DNA of 64,000 nucleotides from an uncultured Bacteriovorax sp. (GTDB taxonomy: Bacteria > Bdellovibrionota > UBA1018). Both the position numbers and the translations under genes were made by a program. This document shows, piece after piece, positions 1 through 13,773 of this stretch. Numbering within the stretch: the stretch's first letter is position 1; the number at the start of each line of letters is the position of its first letter. Under the pieces are notes generated by a model. It made no database searches. It saw nothing but the letters and a program-made list of their open reading frames with translations, and was not told where the DNA came from. Location: NCBI GenBank assembly GCA_964508305.1, contig CAZDSX010000004.1, positions 3,359-67,358 of the forward strand, given 5' to 3'.

Positions 1-1104
1 GTTCGCCCTGGCGGTCCCTACGATCCTTCCCTCCCGCACGAAGGCGAGGTGGCTTCCGTTCAGGATCCCGGCTGCAGGCAGCGCAAATTCAAGTCGTGCG
101 GTGGCCGCTTCACCTACCCAAATATGTGCGGTGCTTCGCACCCAGTGACCGTCGGCGCGTCGGACTTCCACCTGAAGACCCGCCAGCGGAGGCGCACCCA
201 CCGGATCGAGCCAGCGGAAATCCCGGAGCAGCACTGACTGTTGTGCATAGGCCTGGAGGGTCCCTGCCCAGATCGTCTGGCTTTCGGCATCCGCAGCGAT
301 GGAGTAGAGGCGCTCGGATGGTGCGCTCGTCGCACTGTTCGGTTCGTCTTCGATGAGCGCCACATGGACCGGCACTCCGATCGGATGCTCATGAACTCCC
401 TGGTGCTCGGCCAGGCCTGAACCCTGATGGATCTCACGAACCCATCCCGGCTGACTGAACCCGGGTGGAAGCCGAGCGCTCGCCCACTCAAACCAGGCGG
501 ATGGGGCTGCAACTGAGGGATGCTGGATTCGCTGCAGGCGCGCCGGATCAGGAGGCAGGCCCAGTGTCTGGGCCAGCTTGAAGATCTGTGCGTCGTTGAA
601 GCCTCCAAGCGGAAAATCGAGATCCCTCGTCTCCGAGCCGCATGCAAAGGCCAGGGTCGAGGCCTGGCAGTGATCGGTGGCGTCTGCCAGCAGCACGCCG
701 CCTCGTAGGATCCCGCGATGCCCGGTGGCGACGCCATCATAGTTGCCGTCCCGGCCCAGTTGGCGGAGCGCGGAGAGCAGCAGCTCCGAATGGAGAAGGA
801 CTTCTGGCGAGGGCTCTTGTCCACGGAGCACCTCGTGAAGGTAGGGATCAGCGACCCGCTGTTCAAACAGGCCGCCTGCCGAAATGATCTCGAGCTCCAG
901 TCCGAGCTCGGACGCGCGGGCGGCGGCATGGCGGGCGGCCTCCGGTGATCCCACGGATTCGTGCACGGAGCGCCACGCGCCATGCTGGAAATCCGAAAAA
1001 TCGAGGAAAACACCGCGCATCTCGCAGTCCTGTTCTCGGAGGAGTGCGATCAGGACCGAGCTCCGGATGCCGCCGGTGAAGCCGACCAGGATCCTGCGGC
1101 TCAT
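1..1104 (-). CDS. MnmA/TrmU-like PP-loop tRNA 2-thiouridylase homolog (C-terminus runs off window start); catalytic residues appear substituted
   Basis: Manual reverse-strand translation from ATG at 1104 is open to position 1, which is why the ORF track does not list it. N-terminus MSRRILVGFTGGIRSSVLIALLREQDCEMRGVFL aligns to MnmA [20 protein letters not shown]...GLFM. ATGH motif present (DGVATGH). The PP-loop reads TGGIRSS instead of SGGxDSS, and the positions of the catalytic Cys102/Cys199 of E. coli MnmA read Leu/Pro. Confidence 0.5.
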   Translation of the reverse strand, partial: MSRRILVGFTGGIRSSVLIALLREQDCEMRGVFLDFSDFQHGAWRSVHESVGSPEAARHAAARASELGLELEIISAGGLFEQRVADPYLHEVLRGQEPSPEVLLHSELLLSALRQLGRDGNYDGVATGHRGILRGGVLLADATDHCQASTLAFACGSETRDLDFPLGGFNDAQIFKLAQTLGLPPDPARLQRIQHPSVAAPSAWFEWASARLPPGFSQPGWVREIHQGSGLAEHQGVHEHPIGVPVHVALIEDEPNSATSAPSERLYSIAADAESQTIWAGTLQAYAQQSVLLRDFRWLDPVGAPPLAGLQVEVRRADGHWVRSTAHIWVGEAATARLEFALPAAGILNGSHLAFVREGRIVGTARAN

Positions 1105-2336
1105 GCGCGACGGCCCTTGCGAGCCGCCTCGACGGACCGTGAAAGCGCAGGCAGGAAGCGTTCCTGCAAGGTCTCCCTCGAAATGCCGGGCGTGAGCGAG
1201 ATCCGCAAGCTCGCCAACGCGAGTTCATCCGGAAGGCCCATCGCCTTGAGGACATGGGAGGGGCGCCTGACTCCGGCCGAGCAGGCGGAGCCCGCGCTGA
1301 CGGCAAACCCTTCCAGATCCAGCCGATCGGTGAGCGCGATTCCGCGCGGGTCAACGTCGGCAAAGCTGACATTGAGTGTGTTGCAAACGCGCTCGGCTGC
1401 AGCCCCGTTGATGCGTGCGCCGGGGATCGCCCGAAGGATCTCGGACTCAAGCTCGTCCCGGAACGTGCCCAGTGCAACCTCGGCCCTCCAGATGGCGATT
1501 TCGGCTGCAAGCCCGAGCGACCAGGCCCCGAGAGCGTTTTCGGTTCCCGCCCGAAGCGCGCGCTGCTGGTTTCCGCTGAAAACTGGGATCGCAGCCAGGA
1601 GCTCGCGGCCGCGCCTGGAAAACGCAAGTACCCCGGTGCCGGACAGTGCTCCGAGCTTGTGTCCGGAGGTTACAAGGAAGTCGCAATCCGAAAAAGGCAG
1701 GTTTGCCTGAGATGCATGCGAGAGCTTGTCCCACGCCTGGGCCGCATCGATCAGGACCAGTCCGCCATGGCGTCGCAGGAGCGCACAGAGTTCGCCCAGT
1801 CGATGCTGGATCACCCCGGTCTCGTTGTTCACCCAAAGGAAGCTTGCGAGGAAGGGGCGTCCCTCACCGATCGCCCCCAGTGCCGAGAGTTCGGAGAGCC
1901 GAACCTCGAGAGCCTCGACATCCACCCTCCCCTGCGCGTCGAGCGGAAGTGCCACCAGCGAGCCAGGATGCTCGGCCTCCCAGCGTGCGCGGTAGGCCAG
2001 CGAGCCATTGTGCTCGGTGGGCGAATAGAGCCAATGAATGGGGCCATGGGAGCCGGCCAAAGCAAAACAGGCGGCCCGGATCGCGCCCTGGAGCGCTTCG
2101 GTGCCGCCTGAAGTGATGATCCAATCCTGCTCGGTGATTCCCGGAATCATTCGGGCGAGCGAAGCAGTCACCTGCTCCCGCGCACGACGCACCAAAGCAT
2201 TGGCTTCGCGGCCAAGCTGGTGTCCCGAGGAGGGATTGTACAGAACCGGGAGGACCTCGCCGATCTTCTCCCTCAACGGGTGAAGGGGCGGGATCCCTGC
2301 GTTGGCATCAAGATAGGTCGCGGCCCTTGCCGACAT
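1101..2336 (-). CDS. cysteine desulfurase (IscS/NifS family, PLP-dependent)
   Basis: Motifs TSGHKLG (PLP lysine) and SAGSACSAG (catalytic Cys loop). Start chosen at internal MSARAATYLDANAG to limit overlap with the upstream Rrf2 gene. ATG at 1104 of the next gene overlaps the stop TGA at 1101-1103. Confidence 0.8.
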   Translation of the reverse strand: MSARAATYLDANAGIPPLHPLREKIGEVLPVLYNPSSGHQLGREANALVRRAREQVTASLARMIPGITEQDWIITSGGTEALQGAIRAACFALAGSHGPIHWLYSPTEHNGSLAYRARWEAEHPGSLVALPLDAQGRVDVEALEVRLSELSALGAIGEGRPFLASFLWVNNETGVIQHRLGELCALLRRHGGLVLIDAAQAWDKLSHASQANLPFSDCDFLVTSGHKLGALSGTGVLAFSRRGRELLAAIPVFSGNQQRALRAGTENALGAWSLGLAAEIAIWRAEVALGTFRDELESEILRAIPGARINGAAAERVCNTLNVSFADVDPRGIALTDRLDLEGFAVSAGSACSAGVRRPSHVLKAMGLPDELALASLRISLTPGISRETLQERFLPALSRSVEAARKGRRA

Positions 2337-2835
2337 TGACCGATGCGCCCGTGGAAGCAGGGATCTGGAATCCGGTGTTCTCGAGAATCTGGTTCGTTGC
2401 GCGGCCAGTTTCCTGGGTCGTGCCACGTGCCTTGCGGATGAGGTCGCCCACCGAAGTCGTGGTGAGGTATTCCTGCATGATCAGGCCGAGGTTCTCGAAG
2501 TAAGTCTTGGTCAGGATGAACTCGACGGTGTCGGACTTGATGTCGCCGGTCCCGATGAGGTCACGCGCAGGGTTGATGTTTTCACCCACGCTCGTGAGCA
2601 CATCGCGCACGGAGATTTCGTCCATTGAGCGGGAAAGAACATAGCCGCCACCCGGTCCGCGCACGCTCTTGACCACTGCTCCCTTGCGGAGGCGGCGGAA
2701 AAGCTGTTCGAGGTAGTGGAGCGAGATCTTCTGGCGCTCAGAGATTTCCTGCAGACGCACTGGGCGACCATTCGAATTGAAGGTCAGGTCCAGAATTGCG
2801 CGCACTGCGTAGCGTCCCTTTGAAGTCAGCCTCAT
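2308..2835 (-). CDS. Rrf2-family transcriptional regulator (IscR-like)
   Basis: MRLTSKGRYAVRAILDL... N-terminal wHTH typical of Rrf2/IscR. Located upstream of the cysteine desulfurase. Start set at MRLTSKG (ATG 2833-2835). Confidence 0.8.
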   Translation of the reverse strand: MRLTSKGRYAVRAILDLTFNSNGRPVRLQEISERQKISLHYLEQLFRRLRKGAVVKSVRGPGGGYVLSRSMDEISVRDVLTSVGENINPARDLIGTGDIKSDTVEFILTKTYFENLGLIMQEYLTTTSVGDLIRKARGTTQETGRATNQILENTGFQIPASTGASVNVGKGRDLS

Positions 2836-3012: not shown

Positions 3013-3678
3013 GTGTCAGGTAATGGTTCCTCAGGAAGCGACGGCGTGGGTTCAAAGCAGGCCGGCTCTAGCGGATTCTCAATCGACAATGAAAAGTCGA
3101 TTCAGCTGGAAGTTCCATCGATTACAAAGCTTTTGGACCGCAAAAAGCTCGAGATCTCCTCCCCTGCCAACAAGGCCACCATTCGCCCCAAGGGGGGCAC
3201 GGATCGGCGGACCGAATCTCGCCTGCTCACGCTTCCCGAGGCTTCTGCCGCCCCCGCTCGACCTCAGTCGTCCGAGGACCTGGCCCGCAGGCTCAGGCAG
3301 GCCATCTCGGCCAGCTGGGTTGTGGTGCTGGCAGCCGAGGGCAAAGCCTTTAAGGCCCATTCGGTGCTGGGTGGCGATCGCAACCTTTGGAGTCTCTTTA
3401 CCGGGTTTGCGATCGGACCCGAGCATTCTCCCTCTCTTTTCTCGGCGCTTGCCCAGGGTCGGCAGGTTGAGCTCACTTCCGTTTCGGGCGCCTCCGACGC
3501 ACAAGCACTCCGTTCCGCGCTGGCACTCCCCGCATCGAGTGGCCTGATCGTCGTAGCTGCGGGAAGCGGAAGTGCAATGCCTTTCCTGCTGCTTGCAGCT
3601 TTCCCGGGCTCCTCCGGCGCAGCGCTCGGCCCAAGGCTCGCAGGACTGCTCAAGGAACTCGTTGCAGCCAAGCTCTAG
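3013..3678 (+). CDS. hypothetical protein (Ser/Gly-rich N-terminus, Ala/Leu-rich C-terminus)
   Basis: GTG start preceded by AGGAGA RBS at 3001-3006. Divergent from the Rrf2 gene. No recognisable motif. Confidence 0.55.
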   Translation: MSGNGSSGSDGVGSKQAGSSGFSIDNEKSIQLEVPSITKLLDRKKLEISSPANKATIRPKGGTDRRTESRLLTLPEASAAPARPQSSEDLARRLRQAISASWVVVLAAEGKAFKAHSVLGGDRNLWSLFTGFAIGPEHSPSLFSALAQGRQVELTSVSGASDAQALRSALALPASSGLIVVAAGSGSAMPFLLLAAFPGSSGAALGPRLAGLLKELVAAKL

Positions 3679-3689
3679 TTTAAGCCTGG

Positions 3690-4166
3690 CTACTTTTGGC
3701 TTCTGTACTGAATCGTGACTTCGCGGCGGTCGTGCTCCTGCGAGGGCGCCAGCTCGATCCTAAAGAGTGGAGTACGGGAGTCTGCCTCGAGCGCTTCGCA
3801 GAGTGAAGGAAACCTTGAGGTCCATTCCGACAACACGATCGCCGAAGACTCCCAGAAATAGGCGGGAATCCCGGCTGCCTCGAGATCCATTTCGTCCTCG
3901 ATCCGGTACAGGTCAAGGTGGATCAATCTGCGTCCGTTGGCCGGGTATTCGTGGGCCAGCGCGAAGGTGGGACTTCCTTCGGGACGAAGGGTTCCACCCA
4001 AAGCCGGGATCAGATGGCGTGCAGCCGTGGACTTGCCGGCTCCCATCGGACCTTCGAGCAGGATCCACGCGGGGGCGCGGAGCTCGCCTGCAAGATCCTG
4101 CATGATCCGACACAAATCCTGCTCAGCGCAGGCGCTGGCGGCCTTCCAGGTTTGCCAATGAGGCAT
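3690..4166 (-). CDS. tsaE: tRNA threonylcarbamoyladenosine biosynthesis protein TsaE
   Basis: Walker A LEGPMGAGKST plus TFALAHEY and HLDLYRIEDEMDLE signatures of YjeE/TsaE. Confidence 0.85.
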   Translation of the reverse strand: MPHWQTWKAASACAEQDLCRIMQDLAGELRAPAWILLEGPMGAGKSTAARHLIPALGGTLRPEGSPTFALAHEYPANGRRLIHLDLYRIEDEMDLEAAGIPAYFWESSAIVLSEWTSRFPSLCEALEADSRTPLFRIELAPSQEHDRREVTIQYRSQK

Positions 4167-6513: not shown

Positions 6514-7925
6514 GCGAGTTTGCTCCGGATCTCCGCGGCGATCGAGTCCGCCAATCCACGGATCAGCGATGCGTCCTCGCCCTCCAGCAGCACACGGCAA
6601 AGGGGTTCCGTACCCGAAAACCGCACGAACACTCGGCCTCGGCCTGCGAGCTTCGACTCGGCGTCCTGGATCGCCTTTTGGACGGTGGGCAGATTTTCCA
6701 GCTTCTCCCTGCGGGAGATCCGGACATCGGCGCGCGCCTGCGGGAAAAGACGAATCGCCTTTTTGAGCTCCGAAAGCTTTTTGCCGGTGCGTTTCATGGC
6801 CTCAAGGACCTTGAGGGCGGCGACGATGCCGTCACCGGTGGTCGACTGATCGAGGAAGATGATGTGCCCCGACTGTTCGCCACCGAGGTTGAAGCCGTTC
6901 TTGCGCATGGTGTCCACGACATGGCGGTCGCCCACCTGCGCGCGGACCATGGCAATGCCGTGGTCTTTGAGCGTGAGTTCGAGCCCAAGATTCGACATCG
7001 GGGTGGTCACCACCGTGCTCTTGGAGAGGGTTCCTTCCTTGGCCATCTGGAGAGCAAGAATCCCGATGATCTGGTCCCCGTCGACGATCTCGCCGTTCTC
7101 GTCGGACATGATGCAACGGTCGCCGTCGCCGTCGAGGGCGATGCCCACGTCGGCACGGAACTGGATGGTCTTTCCGCAGATCTCCTCAGGATGGAGCGCG
7201 CCGCACTGGTCGTTGATGTTCAGACCGTTGGGACTTGAACCCGACTTGATGACTTCAGCGCCGAGCTCTTCAAAAACCATCGGGGCCACCTTGTAGGCTG
7301 CCCCGTTTGCGCTATCGAGGGCGATGCGCATCCCCATGAGGTCCAGATCCTTGGCAAAGAGTGCCTTGAGGAAGACCAGGTATCGGTTGTGGATGTCATC
7401 CAGGCGGAAGGCCTTGCCCACGAGGTCTGCCGTGGGTCGCTGGCCATCGATTTCCTTCGAGAGCACCAGGCGCTCGATTTCGTTTTCGAGTTCGTCCGGG
7501 AGCTTGTAGCCGTCGGCCGAGAAAATCTTGATCCCGTTGTCGTGGTAAGGGTTGTGCGAGGCGGAGATCATGATGCCCGCATCGGCGCGCATGCTCTGCG
7601 TGACAAAGGCGACCCCCGGGGTCGAGAGCGGGCCGATCAGGATCACGTCGGCTCCCATGGAGCAGATCCCCGAAGCGAGTGCGTTTTCGATCATGTATCC
7701 GGAGAGGCGCGTATCCTTGCCCACCACGATCTTGAGGCGGCGGATGGGCTTGCTGGACTCGAGGGGCTTGAGGCCTACCGGAAGCGTGCTGCGACCCAGG
7801 CCGATGGGCTGAGTGCGCAGGACATGGGCTACTGCGCGGCCCACGGCCATTGCGATCTCCCCGGTCATGGGGAACTGGTTGGCCATTCCACGGATGCCAT
7901 CGGTACCAAAGAGACGCTCTGCCAT
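6510..7925 (-). CDS. glmM: phosphoglucosamine mutase
   Basis: GTDGIRG N-terminus and active-site SASHNPYHDNGIKIF motif. Confidence 0.9.
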   Translation of the reverse strand: MAERLFGTDGIRGMANQFPMTGEIAMAVGRAVAHVLRTQPIGLGRSTLPVGLKPLESSKPIRRLKIVVGKDTRLSGYMIENALASGICSMGADVILIGPLSTPGVAFVTQSMRADAGIMISASHNPYHDNGIKIFSADGYKLPDELENEIERLVLSKEIDGQRPTADLVGKAFRLDDIHNRYLVFLKALFAKDLDLMGMRIALDSANGAAYKVAPMVFEELGAEVIKSGSSPNGLNINDQCGALHPEEICGKTIQFRADVGIALDGDGDRCIMSDENGEIVDGDQIIGILALQMAKEGTLSKSTVVTTPMSNLGLELTLKDHGIAMVRAQVGDRHVVDTMRKNGFNLGGEQSGHIIFLDQSTTGDGIVAALKVLEAMKRTGKKLSELKKAIRLFPQARADVRISRREKLENLPTVQKAIQDAESKLAGRGRVFVRFSGTEPLCRVLLEGEDASLIRGLADSIAAEIRSKLA

Positions 7926-11701: not shown

Positions 11702-12625
11702 TTACTCAAGAATCCAGCGGCTTTTGCCCGTTTCGCTCAACCATTCATGCGTCAACTTCCGGCCGCCCTCGATGTCGAGCGAGCGGGTCTGCTGCAGCTC
11801 CCTGGCCTCGGCGAGCGCTTCCCAGTGGGCCCGCCTCACGCGGACCCCCTCGCCGCCGAGCACCCCGGCCAGGATCGAGGTTTCGTCCGACCCCTCGGCC
11901 GGTGTCGCGACCCTCAGAGCCGCATCACTGAGGTGCTCGACCCATCGGGGAAACAGTGCATCGAGCCTGGGGCTCAGTTCGGCACGGATCCTTCCCCTAA
12001 GGAGTCGAAGATCTGAGTTGCTGGAATCCTCCCGCCAGCCCATTCCCTCTTCGGCCAGGAAGTCGCGAAGCTCCTGTCGGCGAGTCGTGAGGGCGAGCCT
12101 GACCTCGGATCCCTCCCGGAAACGGATTCCTGCTCCGTGGGTCTGGGATGCACCAGTCATCAAGCGCCAGAGAAGGGTTTCGGCCAGGTCATCGGCATGG
12201 TGGCCGGTGAGCAGGATGGAACCGGGACCATGCGCATGCAGCTGTTTGGCAAAGAAGTCCTTCCGCTCTGCCCGCGCAGCCCCCTCTGGGGAGACTCCAG
12301 CGCCGGCCCGGCCCTGGGAAGATCGACCTACGTGCACCGGAATACCGAGCTTTCGCCCGAGTTGCAGTACTGCAGCCTCATCCCCATCGCTCTCGTCTCC
12401 TCGCCACCCATGGTTAAAGTGCAGCAAGCCCGAGACTTTCCCTAGTCGCTGTCCGTAGACCGTCACAAGTTGCGCGATCGCGGTTGAGTCCGCCCCGCCT
12501 GAGCAGGCGCAAAGGATCTGCGAAGCTAAAAGATTGGGCTCATGATCACGAGCAAAGGAGATCCAGCGACGGATGAGGGTGCCGCCGACTTGGCCCGGGA
12601 CAGGTTTGTGTGAATGGTCCTGCAT
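11702..12625 (-). CDS. tilS: tRNA(Ile)-lysidine synthetase TilS
   Basis: PP-loop CSGGADS and TGHHADDLAETLL motif. Immediately upstream of ftsH, the usual tilS-(hpt)-ftsH arrangement with hpt absent. Confidence 0.85.
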   Translation of the reverse strand: MQDHSHKPVPGQVGGTLIRRWISFARDHEPNLLASQILCACSGGADSTAIAQLVTVYGQRLGKVSGLLHFNHGWRGDESDGDEAAVLQLGRKLGIPVHVGRSSQGRAGAGVSPEGAARAERKDFFAKQLHAHGPGSILLTGHHADDLAETLLWRLMTGASQTHGAGIRFREGSEVRLALTTRRQELRDFLAEEGMGWREDSSNSDLRLLRGRIRAELSPRLDALFPRWVEHLSDAALRVATPAEGSDETSILAGVLGGEGVRVRRAHWEALAEARELQQTRSLDIEGGRKLTHEWLSETGKSRWILE

Positions 12626-12694: not shown

Positions 12695-12771
12695 GGCTGG
12701 GTAGCTCAGATGGTTAGAGCGGCGGATTCATAACCCGCAGGTCGGCAGTTCGATCCTGCCCTCAGCCACCA
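12695..12771 (+). tRNA. tRNA with CAU anticodon (elongator Met or lysidine-modified Ile2), CCA encoded
   Basis: Cloverleaf folded by hand: acceptor GGCTGGG/CTCAGCC with one G-U pair; D-arm GCTC-AGATGGTTA-GAGC; anticodon arm GCGGA-TTCATAA-CCCGC with a 31:39 A-C mismatch; T-arm GGCAG-TTCGATC-CTGCC; discriminator A. G1-C72 is paired, so it is not an initiator tRNA. Confidence 0.85.
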
Positions 12772-13092: not shown

Positions 13093-13773
13093 ATGCAGAC
13101 GCGGACCTACAAGTACTACGACCTGGTGATGGCGGCCTTCGTGACCGTGCTGCTTTGCTCCAACTTGATTGGAGCTTCGAAAATCACGACCGTCGGTGGG
13201 TTTACCTTTGGCGCCGGGATCTTCTTTTTTCCGGTGAGTTATATTTTTGGCGACATCCTGACCGAAGTCTACGGGTATGCCAGGGCCCGCAAGGTGGTCT
13301 GGGCCGGATTTACGGCCATGGCTTTTGCGTCATTCATGGCTTGGTTTGTCGTGGGCCTGCCTCCAGCCGAGGGCTACGCCAATCAGGAGGCGCTTGAAAA
13401 GATCCTGGGAGGAACTCCAAGGATTGCCGGGGCCTCCCTGGTCGCCTTTTTTTGCGGGGAGTTTTGCAACTCCCTCACGCTCGCCAAGATGAAAATCTGG
13501 ACCAATGGCAAGAAGCTCTGGGCTCGTACCATTGGCTCGACCGTCGTGGGTGAGGCAGTGGATTCCCTGATCTTCTATCCGCTCGCATTCCTGGGGATCT
13601 GGGAGACCGCCCTCGTGCTCAAGGTCATGCTCAGCAACTACCTGCTCAAGGTCCTCTGGGAAGTGATCAACACTCCGCTCACCTACCAGGCCGTAAAGTT
13701 CCTCAAGAAGGCAGAGAACGAGGATTTTTACGACCGCGGAACCGACTTCACCCCATTCTCCCTGGAGACATGA
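13093..13773 (+). CDS. yhhQ: queuosine precursor transporter (YhhQ/DUF165 family)
   Basis: Hallmark FPVSYIFGDILTEVYGY motif and multi-TM profile. Confidence 0.8.
   Translation: MQTRTYKYYDLVMAAFVTVLLCSNLIGASKITTVGGFTFGAGIFFFPVSYIFGDILTEVYGYARARKVVWAGFTAMAFASFMAWFVVGLPPAEGYANQEALEKILGGTPRIAGASLVAFFCGEFCNSLTLAKMKIWTNGKKLWARTIGSTVVGEAVDSLIFYPLAFLGIWETALVLKVMLSNYLLKVLWEVINTPLTYQAVKFLKKAENEDFYDRGTDFTPFSLET

What the first reader, a model, noticed from the sequence alone, without database searches (positions are those of the whole stretch)
1..1104. MnmA/TrmU homolog downstream of the cysteine desulfurase lacks the PP-loop Asp and both catalytic cysteines (possible pseudoenzyme)
The N-terminus aligns convincingly to MnmA (VGFTGGIRSSV vs [11 protein letters not shown]; ATGH present). 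The PP-loop reads TGGIRSS, with Asp replaced by Arg. The segments corresponding to E. coli Cys102 (PNPDILCNKEIKF) and Cys199 (GICFIGE) read PSPEVLLHSELLL and FPLGGF. The KDQSYFL tRNA-binding motif is degenerate (TDHCQASTL). The reading frame is intact for more than 1.1 kb, so this is a selected but probably non-catalytic paralog coupled to the Rrf2-cysteine desulfurase module.
Basis: partly seen in the sequence, partly recalled or inferred. Interest (0 to 1): 0.55.

Follow-up and report, generated by a model that had tools for sequence, protein, structure and literature searches.

The report
Cysteine-free, remodelled MnmA orthologue in Bdellovibrionota
In this Bdellovibrionota genome, the gene that normally makes the wobble 2-thiouridine of tRNA still encodes a well-folded, selected protein but has lost every residue known to be needed for that chemistry. 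Related bacteria show the same decay repeatedly, so an enzyme thought near-universal may be dispensable or repurposed here.

Summary
Window 1..1104 (minus strand, 368 of 379 codons) encodes a three-domain MnmA homologue (AlphaFold pLDDT 93; TM 0.71-0.83 to E. coli MnmA).

- **Lost residues:** the PP-loop reads TGGIRSS (Asp to Arg). Asp99, Cys102 and Cys199 of E. coli correspond to Glu, Leu and Ser. No cysteine is conserved anywhere in the family.
FPLGGF aligns with E. coli FPVGEL, not with the Cys199 loop.
- **Not a paralogue:** it sits at the ancestral Rrf2 - cysteine desulfurase - MnmA - MtaB operon of Bdellovibrionota/Oligoflexia, with ATGA overlap to the desulfurase. In relatives the same slot holds fully canonical MnmA, versions lacking only the Asp, at least five cysteine-free lineages, and in one contig no gene at all.
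- **Neighbours intact:** the desulfurase, and MtaB in the relatives, keep their catalytic residues.
- **Selection:** the gene evolves about 10 times faster than its neighbours but stays under purifying selection (dN/dS about 0.14). Its remodelled pocket is conserved (Arg14, Asp35, Arg130, His105, His195).

I conclude it is not a thiouridylase by either known mechanism. It is most likely a retained ligand-binding, non-catalytic partner of the desulfurase module. Whether a second canonical mnmA exists in the genome could not be tested.

The parts
1..1104 (-). MnmA-like gene: 368 of 379 codons, with the last 11 codons and the stop lying beyond window base 1. The predicted protein has the three-domain MnmA fold.
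   Evidence: Translation; Pfam and NCBIfam matches; alignment to PDB MnmA; AlphaFold model with pLDDT 93 and pTM 0.91; Foldseek top hits 2der/2det/2deu with TM 0.71-0.83; full-length product P0282.
1057..1077 (-). PP-loop TGGIRSS (residues 10-16). The Asp of the canonical SGGxDS is replaced by Arg14, which is present in every family member that covers this position (11 of 11).
1000..1002 (-). Asp35 at the end of strand 2. Canonical MnmA has Arg, Gln or Lys here. Asp35 is invariant in the Arg family, so it may form a charge-swapped pair with Arg14.
   Evidence: Asp at this column in 4 of 122 sequences that keep the PP-loop Asp, 19 of 64 sequences that lack it, and 9 of 9 members of the Arg family. 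Spatial proximity to Arg14 was not verified.
784..813 (-). Segment PSPEVLLHSE, equivalent to E. coli PNPDILCNKE. Asp/Cys99 corresponds to Glu101, Cys102 to Leu104 and Asn103 to His105.
715..729 (-). ATGHR motif. ATGH is retained, and the canonical Tyr129 is replaced by Arg130.
652..678 (-). TDHCQASTL, the degenerate counterpart of the canonical KDQSYFL motif. Only the Gln is kept.
502..528 (-). IQHPSVAAP, the loop equivalent to E. coli DSTGICFIG. Cys199 corresponds to Ser197, and a His-Pro pair is conserved in the cysteine-free clade.
1101..2336 (-). Type I (NifS/IscS/DndA-like) cysteine desulfurase with an intact PLP lysine (SGHKLGA) and catalytic Cys (SAGSACS). Its stop codon overlaps the MnmA-like start codon (ATGA).
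2308..2835 (-). Rrf2/IscR-like regulator, the first gene of the operon. It overlaps the desulfurase start by 29 nt.

Best explanation
The gene is the positional orthologue of mnmA in an uncultured Bdellovibrionota (NCBI 'Oligoflexia') bacterium. It has lost tRNA-U34 2-thiolation chemistry but is kept as a folded protein.

**Shown:**
- It keeps the three-domain MnmA fold and the glycine cradle of the PP-loop.
- It lacks the PP-loop Asp, the Asp/Cys99-Cys102-Cys199 triad and any conserved cysteine. It therefore can neither carry a persulfide nor bind the [4Fe-4S] cluster used by the two known MnmA mechanisms.
- It is translationally coupled to an intact cysteine desulfurase. In all relatives it is followed by an intact MtaB.
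- It is under purifying selection that is relaxed about fivefold relative to its neighbours.
- Its most conserved part is the remodelled former active site (Arg14, Asp35, His105, Arg130, His195-Pro196).

**Inferred:**
- It works as a non-catalytic, ligand-binding subunit (nucleotide or anion, possibly RNA) of the desulfurase module. This would resemble the way degenerate PP-loop proteins such as Ctu2/Ncs2 persist as partners.
- These lineages either lack MnmA-made s2U34 or obtain it from an enzyme encoded elsewhere.
For: - **Residue losses:**. The lost residues are essential in experiments (PMC7025502; PMC11784392).
- **No conserved Cys:** none in the 8-member cysteine-free clade.
- **Fold retained:**
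- **Same operon slot as canonical MnmA:**
- **Graded series at one locus:** 16 fully canonical copies (model score above 510), several lacking only the Asp, at least 5 cysteine-free lineages, and one clean deletion in L031 with 5 nt between the desulfurase and MtaB.
- **Cavity filling:** Cys102 is replaced by bulky hydrophobic residues (F, L, Y, M, W) in independent lineages, as expected when an empty cluster cavity is filled.
- **Rates:** dN is 0.25 against 0.026 for GlmM and YjeF, but dN/dS is 0.14.
- **Domain conservation:** the N-terminal domain is the most conserved within the family, 43% against 33%.
- **Link to the desulfurase:** desulfurase divergence tracks MnmA degeneracy (Spearman 0.76, n=31), while MtaB divergence does not (0.30, n=22). 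The desulfurase Lys and Cys are intact in every lineage, and the MtaB Cys motifs are intact in the six relatives checked.
- **Internal control:** TilS in the same window keeps a canonical SGGADS PP-loop.
- **Charge:** the family is acidic (pI 5.7-6.3) against a canonical median of 8.5. Canonical Lys107, Lys149, Lys175 and Arg243 are lost.
Against: - No experiment supports any of this, and no whole genome was available. A second canonical mnmA, or a TtuA/NcsA-type enzyme, may exist.
- The partner role is inferred only from gene overlap and correlated divergence. That correlation is not corrected for phylogeny and could equally reflect joint relaxation.
- A strongly conserved, remodelled pocket is also what a new catalytic activity would look like.
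- Arg14/Asp35 may be a charge swap that preserves ATP-Mg binding.
- The lost basic residues and the acidic pI argue against retained tRNA binding, so the ligand is unknown.
- One lineage deleted the gene (L031), so whatever it does is dispensable there.
Confidence: 0.5

Rival explanations
1. Decaying relic. The s2U34 function was abandoned or taken over, and the ORF persists mainly because it lies inside a translationally coupled essential operon (desulfurase - X - MtaB - RNase III - Era - Der). The protein itself has little or no function.
For: - dN is 10-fold higher than in the neighbours.
- Catalytic residues were lost repeatedly and independently.
- The gene is cleanly deleted in L031.
- 4-nt overlaps on both sides in relatives.
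Against: - pN is 0.21 against pS 0.68, giving dN/dS of 0.14.
- More than 40 positions are invariant across family members that share only 30-40% identity, including Arg14, which is specific to this family.
- The AlphaFold model built from the family alignment is confident.
- Bacteria delete useless genes quickly, yet the family spans deep divergence: FtsH is 84% identical where the MnmA-like protein is 37% identical.
Confidence: 0.15
2. Still a U34 thiouridylase with a non-canonical mechanism. Arg14/Asp35 would replace the Asp17/Lys38 arrangement for ATP-Mg binding and adenylation. Sulfur would come directly from the persulfide on the mobile loop of the co-translated desulfurase, or from free sulfide.
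For: - Arg14 and Asp35 are invariant, and Asp recurs at position 38 in lineages that lost the PP-loop Asp.
- The PP-loop glycines, ATGH and Gln151 are retained.
- Coupling to, and correlated divergence with, the desulfurase.
- These organisms still use AAA, GAA and CAA codons (25-72% of Lys, Glu and Gln codons).
Against: - No cysteine and no cluster ligand remain.
- No extra conserved Cys appears in the desulfurase.
- Asp99 is not conserved within the clade (G, E or A).
- tRNA-facing basic residues and the KDQSYFL motif are lost.
- The residue at the PP-loop Asp position varies freely (A, S, N, Q, H, G, E, Y, L, M, P) in sister lineages.
- No Cys-free thiolase of this family has been described in the papers I searched.
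Confidence: 0.12
3. Neofunctionalised enzyme. The remodelled pocket (Arg14, Asp35, His90, His105, Arg130, His195) would catalyse a different reaction that needs no sulfur carrier, on tRNA or on a small molecule.
For: Family-specific residues are conserved exactly where the old active site was, and the N-terminal domain is the most conserved. PP-loop enzymes without catalytic Cys exist; TilS is one (general knowledge, and TilS is present in this window).
Against: - The other cysteine-free lineages (L069 clade, L073, L045, P0129/P0138, P0055/L034) do not converge on the same residues. This points to loss rather than a common new function.
- The evolutionary rate is high.
- No candidate substrate is indicated by the gene context.
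Confidence: 0.13
4. Ctu2-like partner of a canonical MnmA encoded elsewhere.
For: There is a precedent. Ctu2/Ncs2 lacks the cluster cysteines yet is required together with Ctu1/Ncs6 (PMC10067955). A second copy cannot be excluded from 64 kb.
Against: - The degenerate gene sits in the ancestral mnmA slot, so the canonical copy would have to be the newcomer.
- No second MnmA-like sequence is in the window (tblastn).
- Bacterial MnmA is crystallised with tRNA rather than with a second subunit (entry titles of 2der/2det/2deu). That it acts as a monomer is my recollection, not a result obtained here.
Confidence: 0.1

Closest known systems
C-type ([4Fe-4S]) MnmA, e.g. Thermus thermophilus MnmA (PMC7025502)
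   Same: Same superfamily and three-domain fold. The nearest relatives of the window protein (P0005, P0010) and the canonical copies at the same locus carry the CxxC...C motif of this type. So the window protein descends from a C-type MnmA.
   Different: All three cluster cysteines are gone (Glu, Leu and Ser at those positions). The PP-loop Asp, described as 'strictly conserved' and essential (D13A is dead), is Arg. The score is far below the NCBIfam equivalog cut-off (85 against 284 bits).
D-type MnmA, E. coli (PDB 2der, 2det, 2deu)
   Same: Best structural match: TM 0.71-0.83 across all three domains. ATGH, FPxG, the EHxG motif and the PP-loop glycines are shared.
   Different: Asp17, Cys102 and Cys199 are replaced. 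Lys107, Lys149, Lys175 and Arg243 and the KDQSYFL motif are lost. The protein is acidic rather than basic.
Bacillus subtilis YrvO-MnmA (CymR/Rrf2 - desulfurase - MnmA operon; abbreviated s2U pathway)
   Same: Same gene order: an Rrf2 regulator, a dedicated type I cysteine desulfurase and MnmA. In B. subtilis, sulfur passes directly from the desulfurase to MnmA (PMC11784392). The B. subtilis gene order itself is from my own knowledge.
   Different: The acceptor here has no cysteine to receive the persulfide. The operon also continues into MtaB, RNase III, Era and Der.
Ctu2/Ncs2, the non-catalytic PP-loop-family partner of Ctu1/Ncs6
   Same: A thiouridylase homologue that keeps the fold, lacks the cluster cysteines and is retained by selection (PMC10067955).
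   Different: Ctu2 is a duplicate that works with an active paralogue, and it belongs to the TtuA/Ncs6 branch. The window gene is the orthologue itself, no active partner is known, and it belongs to the MnmA branch.

Membership tests
MnmA/TrmU tRNA 2-thiouridine(34) synthase | Sequence match to the family domain model (Pfam PF03054, gathering score 20.6) | tested here: met
   57.4 bits, E 2e-15, residues 4-184.
MnmA/TrmU tRNA 2-thiouridine(34) synthase | Score above the NCBIfam equivalog cut-offs (NF001138: 284 bits; TIGR00420: 237 bits) | tested here: not met
   85 and 66 bits. For comparison, the relative P0025 scores 262 and P0005 scores 140.
MnmA/TrmU tRNA 2-thiouridine(34) synthase | Three-domain architecture: PP-loop domain, central barrel and C-terminal barrel | tested here: met
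   AlphaFold model with pLDDT 93. Foldseek TM 0.71-0.83 to 2der/2det/2deu/2hma over about 390 alignment columns.
MnmA/TrmU tRNA 2-thiouridine(34) synthase | PP-loop SGGxDS with the Asp needed for adenylation | tested here: not met
   The loop reads TGGIRSS. The Asp is reported as strictly conserved, and D13A is inactive (PMC7025502).
MnmA/TrmU tRNA 2-thiouridine(34) synthase | Catalytic / cluster triad (Asp or Cys)99 - Cys102 - Cys199 | tested here: not met
   Glu101, Leu104 and Ser197 at these positions. No conserved Cys in the clade.
MnmA/TrmU tRNA 2-thiouridine(34) synthase | Formation of s2U34 on tRNA-Lys, -Glu and -Gln | not testable with these tools
   Needs biochemistry or tRNA mass spectrometry.
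Positional orthologue of mnmA in the Bdellovibrionota Rrf2 - desulfurase - mnmA - mtaB operon | Same flanking genes and orientation as loci that carry canonical MnmA | tested here: met
   Window, L001, L003-5, the P0012 contig, L015, L019, the P0129 contig and 31 metagenome loci with full-length desulfurase and MnmA genes. MtaB equivalog: 373.6 bits against a cut-off of 357.
Pseudoenzyme (non-catalytic homologue retained by selection) | Loss of residues essential for the ancestral reaction | tested here: met
   with the mutational literature.
Pseudoenzyme (non-catalytic homologue retained by selection) | Purifying selection and conservation across deep divergence | tested here: met
   dN/dS of 0.14. 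Twelve 50%-identity clusters share GFTGGxRS and other motifs.
Pseudoenzyme (non-catalytic homologue retained by selection) | Demonstrated absence of catalysis, and a defined non-catalytic role | not testable with these tools
   Only inference from gene context and correlated divergence with the desulfurase.
Ctu2/Ncs2-like partner of an active paralogue | An active catalytic paralogue in the same genome | tested here: inconclusive
   None in the 64-kb window (tblastn).

The most novel reading that the evidence does not exclude
A sizeable branch of Bdellovibrionota/Oligoflexia has given up MnmA-type wobble 2-thiolation altogether. This modification is regarded as conserved in all domains of life. 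The orthologous gene has decayed at least five times and been deleted once, although these bacteria still use AAA, GAA and CAA codons heavily. In the Arg-family the protein has been rebuilt around a new, cysteine-free pocket (Arg14/Asp35 charge swap, Arg130, His105, His195). That pocket would carry out a new function with the cysteine desulfurase, either regulatory or a new ATP-dependent reaction.
Probability: 0.25. Interest if true: 0.8.

Novelty: new variant of a known kind. Interest (0 to 1): 0.6.

Why it matters
s2U34 and MnmA are treated as near-universal in bacteria, and the PP-loop Asp is described as strictly conserved. Here there is a natural series at one orthologous locus: canonical, Asp-less, cysteine-free and deleted.

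If no backup enzyme exists, a bacterial lineage decodes Lys, Glu and Gln A-ending codons without MnmA-made s2U34.

If the protein has a new role, it would be a bacterial example of a tRNA-modification enzyme turned into a pseudoenzyme or new enzyme, and the orthologue itself rather than a duplicate.

The series also gives natural mutants for the unresolved persulfide versus [4Fe-4S] question in MnmA. Many orthologues keep the three cysteines while dropping the Asp.

It also warns that automatic annotation, such as the JGI name 'tRNA U34 2-thiouridine synthase MnmA/TrmU', overcalls function.

Tried and rejected
1. **High-GC hypothesis.** The idea was that rare A-ending Lys, Glu and Gln codons make s2U34 dispensable. 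It is rejected. Degenerate or deleted loci span 39-62% GC and use A-ending codons for 25-72% of these amino acids, the same range as canonical loci.
2. **Genome-contig scan.** The first attempt failed for lack of a conserved stretch. The second used N-terminal patterns and returned only distant canonical MnmAs.
3. **Recovering the source contig beyond the window.** Look-ups of P0162 (FtsH) and P0282 (the window's own product) found no record.
4. **dN/dS against the 99%-identical L017.** There are only 3 differences, all non-synonymous and within 6 codons. This is uninformative.
5. **Second mnmA.** Only the window could be searched, and it holds none. This is not evidence about the genome.
6. 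**Literature.** Searches for a described degenerate or inactive MnmA, or for MnmA in Oligoflexia or Bdellovibrio, found nothing relevant. A search for structural detail on residue 38 also found nothing.
7. **Extra cysteine in the desulfurase.** I looked for one that could compensate for the lost acceptor. None is conserved.
8. **Isoelectric point as a proxy for tRNA binding.** The family is acidic against a basic canonical median, but the canonical range is wide, so this is only weak evidence.
9. **Model coordinates.** They are not available to scripts, so the Arg14-Asp35 distance could not be measured.
Full report
**1. The observation**

The finding lies on the minus strand. An ATG at 1104..1102 opens a frame that stays open to window base 1 (368 codons). 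The window's own full product is in the protein collection as P0282: 379 aa, from an NCBI contig of 86,027 bp. So 11 codons are cut off.

The protein is an MnmA homologue well beyond chance:
- Pfam PF03054: 57.4 bits, E 2e-15.
- NCBIfam MnmA NF001138: E 4.6e-24 over profile positions 1-343 of 345. At 85 bits it is far below the equivalog cut-off of 284.
- phmmer against E. coli MnmA 2der: E 1.2e-12.

The HMMER pairwise alignment and two MAFFT alignments (8 and 158 sequences) agree on these correspondences:
- SGGVDSS aligns with TGGIRSS (Asp17 to Arg14).
- PNPDILCNKE aligns with PSPEVLLHSE (Asp99 to Glu, Cys102 to Leu, Asn103 to His).
- KDQSYFL aligns with DHCQASTL.
- ATGHY aligns with ATGHR.
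- DSTGICFIG aligns with RIQHPSVAAP (Cys199 to Ser).

The absence of a cysteine at the Cys199 position is nevertheless correct. Nucleotide coordinates of all motifs were checked by translation.

**2. Fold and family**

An AlphaFold model was built for P0001 (99% identical, full length) with a 150-sequence alignment. It is confident (pLDDT 93, pTM 0.91). Its best PDB matches are the E. coli MnmA-tRNA complexes and S. pneumoniae TrmU, with TM 0.71-0.83 over all three domains.

An exhaustive profile search of 1.84 billion representatives shows a sharp score gap. Seven clusters score 199-550 bits, and the rest score 158 bits or less. Together with the first search this defines a small family, P0001-5, P0009-14 and P0080. 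All members that cover the N-terminus carry GFTGGxRS[SAT].

Within the family, P0005, P0010, P0014 and P0080 keep whichever of the cluster cysteines their sequence covers: P0005 and P0010 all of CxxC...C, the fragments P0080 the CxxC and P0014 the third Cys. P0001-4, P0009 and P0011-13 have none at these positions and share no conserved Cys anywhere. One member's cluster-mate is named 'Oligoflexia bacterium' by NCBI. The window's FtsH has its best named relatives in Oligoflexia, Bdellovibrionia and Bdellovibrionota MAGs at 79-84% identity.

**3. Context: orthologue, not paralogue**

In the window the order on the minus strand is FtsH, CdaA, YbbR, GlmM, PdxJ, YjeF, TsaE, a divergently transcribed hypothetical gene, Rrf2, the cysteine desulfurase and the MnmA-like gene.
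- The desulfurase stop and the MnmA-like start overlap as ATGA.
- Rrf2 and the desulfurase overlap by 29 nt.

The same order continues into MtaB, RNase III, Era and Der in relatives that carry several different versions:
- the 65%-identical P0002 (L001);
- the Cys-retaining P0005 (L003-5);
- P0012;
- the His-for-Asp, Cys-retaining P0025 (L015);
- P0032, which keeps both the Asp and the cysteines; on its short contig (L019) only the downstream MtaB-like gene and an upstream fragment could be seen;
- the independently cysteine-free P0129.

The downstream gene passes the MtaB equivalog cut-off (373.6 against 357 bits). It keeps its radical-SAM and N-terminal cysteine motifs.

I then used the highly conserved Rrf2 protein to pull 80 related metagenome loci and scored the genes downstream.
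- 16 loci carry a fully canonical C-type MnmA ([10 protein letters not shown], NPCxxCN, KDQ[ST]YFLF, DSQEICF).
- Others lack only the PP-loop Asp.
- Others lack the cysteine triad, nearly all with the Asp also replaced: L034, L045, L068, L069, L073, L079, L081 and L082, and by the part that is seen also the truncated L024 and L044.
- L031 has no mnmA at all, with only 5 nt between the desulfurase and MtaB.

The window gene is therefore the positional orthologue of mnmA. No second MnmA-like sequence is present in the 64-kb window. The rest of the genome could not be examined.

**4. Evolutionary pattern**

Neighbour-joining trees are rough, and long-branch artefacts are possible. They place the Arg-family as one clade with the Cys-retaining members basal. 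They show at least five cysteine-free lineages, each next to Cys-retaining relatives.

Across about 64 orthologues without the PP-loop Asp, that position holds H, A, E, G, S, N, Q, Y, T, L, M, P, K or R. Within the Arg-family, Arg is invariant. Cys102 is replaced by F, L, Y, M or W in independent lineages, as expected when an empty cluster cavity is filled.

Between the window and L001:
- Housekeeping neighbours are 91-98% identical (dN 0.008-0.058).
- The desulfurase is 82% identical (dN 0.115).
- The MnmA-like protein is 65% identical (dN 0.25).
- For the MnmA-like gene pS is 0.68 and dN/dS about 0.14. Selection is relaxed about fivefold but clearly purifying.

Within the cysteine-free clade the N-terminal, formerly catalytic domain is the most conserved (43% against 33% pairwise identity). 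Of the positions that are at least 80% conserved in canonical MnmA:
- The clade keeps mainly glycines, ATGH, Gln151, FPxG and EHxG.
- It loses Asp17, Cys49, residue 99, Cys102, Lys107, Tyr129 (to Arg), Lys149, Lys175, Cys199, Gln242, Arg243 and Gln344.

The family is acidic (pI 5.7-6.3), while canonical MnmA has a median pI of 8.5.

The desulfurase keeps its PLP lysine and catalytic cysteine in every lineage, including the one with no mnmA. Its divergence nevertheless correlates with MnmA degeneracy (Spearman 0.76, n=31), while MtaB's does not (0.30, n=22). This correlation is not phylogenetically corrected.

TilS in the same window has a normal SGGADS loop. The change is therefore specific to MnmA and not a genome-wide oddity.

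**5. A caveat on the PP-loop**

At the end of strand 2 (E. coli Lys38), sequences that keep the PP-loop Asp have Arg, Gln or Lys in 89 of 122 cases and Asp in 4. Sequences without the Asp have Asp there in 19 of 64 cases. The Arg-family has Asp there in 9 of 9.

Arg14/Asp35 may therefore be a charge-swapped pair, or a relocated carboxylate. So Asp-to-Arg alone does not prove loss of nucleotide binding. I could not measure the distance, because model coordinates are not exposed. This matters mostly for the Cys-retaining relatives, which may still be active. The loss of all cysteines in the window protein stands regardless.

**6. How it most likely works**

Both described MnmA mechanisms need what is missing here. 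These are the persulfide relay on Cys199 and Cys102 with Asp99, and sulfide held on a [4Fe-4S] cluster bound by residues 99, 102 and 199. D99A, C102S/A and C199A are inactive in E. coli (PMC11784392). The triple-Cys and D13A mutants are inactive in T. thermophilus (PMC7025502).

I therefore consider the protein not a thiouridylase by known chemistry (shown at the level of residues, inferred for activity).

It is nonetheless kept, folded and translationally coupled to an intact desulfurase, and its former pocket is its best-conserved part. My best explanation is a ligand-binding, non-catalytic subunit of the desulfurase module (inferred). The rivals are:
- a decaying relic kept by operon architecture;
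- a thiouridylase that uses the desulfurase persulfide in trans;
- a new enzyme;
- a Ctu2-like helper of a canonical MnmA encoded elsewhere.

**7. Comparison and novelty**

The protein descends from C-type MnmA. It shares its operon logic with B. subtilis YrvO-MnmA. In evolutionary fate it resembles Ctu2/Ncs2 (PMC10067955), but it is the orthologue itself rather than a duplicate.

It passes the fold and Pfam tests for the MnmA superfamily. It fails the equivalog score, the PP-loop Asp and the catalytic triad. It should therefore not be filed as a tRNA 2-thiouridine synthase, although one source names relatives that way.

I found no description of such MnmA variants in the searchable literature. 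Shigi et al. call the Asp strictly conserved.

I rate it a new variant of a known kind, with moderate-to-good interest. The value lies less in this one gene than in the natural series at one locus, from canonical through Asp-less and cysteine-free to deleted. That series implies that MnmA-made s2U34 may be dispensable or replaced in part of a bacterial phylum. The main weakness is that everything rests on contigs, without a complete genome and without experiments.

Noticed in passing
window 2308-2835 (-) compared with L001 8034-8561: The Rrf2 regulator gene has far lower synonymous divergence between the window and L001 (pS 0.13, dS 0.14) than every neighbouring gene (pS 0.55-0.74). The protein is also 75-94% identical across all 80 metagenome loci. 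This could reflect nucleotide-level constraint, such as an embedded regulatory or RNA element, or recent recombination.
   Followed up: no
L031 6410-9180: In this related metagenome contig the operon has no mnmA at all. The desulfurase ends at 7696 and MtaB starts at 7702. This locus uses A-ending Lys, Glu and Gln codons 72% of the time.
   Followed up: partly
L032 6001-9278, L038 4159-7213, L056 6001-9080: In these three related loci, MnmA and MtaB follow Rrf2 directly with no desulfurase hit in between. MnmA keeps the Asp in L032 and L056 and has Ala at that position in L038. So the desulfurase can also be missing from the operon.
   Followed up: no
window 11702-12625 (-) and 12695-12771 (+): TilS (TIGR02432: 115 bits against a cut-off of 93.6), with a canonical SGGADS PP-loop, lies next to the only tRNA gene in the window. 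That tRNA has a CAT anticodon and is called tRNA-Met. It could instead be the tRNA-Ile(CAU) substrate of TilS.
   Followed up: no
window 3013-3678 (+): A 221-aa ORF is transcribed divergently from the Rrf2 operon and has no NCBIfam hit. An unannotated gene sits at the same place in L001, L003, L015 and the P0012 contig. It evolves fast: 73% identity to L001, 28% to L003, dN/dS 0.16.
   Followed up: no
window 124-141 (-), compared with L017: The only differences from the 99%-identical Logan contig L017 are three amino-acid changes within six codons (RSTAHIWVGE against RSAAHLWAGE). There is no synonymous change in 368 codons.
   Followed up: no
window 1101-2336 (-) and relatives: The catalytic loop of the desulfurase reads GSACSAGVRRPSHV in the window and L001, and GLRKP in L003. 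Loci with canonical MnmA have GV(L/I)EPSHV, so an acidic residue is replaced by basic ones next to the persulfide-carrying cysteine.
   Followed up: no
window 13093-13773 (+), 3690-4166 (-): Other tRNA-modification-related genes lie nearby: a queuosine-precursor transporter (TIGR00697: 119.5 bits) and TsaE (TIGR00150: 65.9 bits against a cut-off of 60.1). The t6A pathway that supplies MtaB's substrate is therefore represented next to the operon.
   Followed up: no
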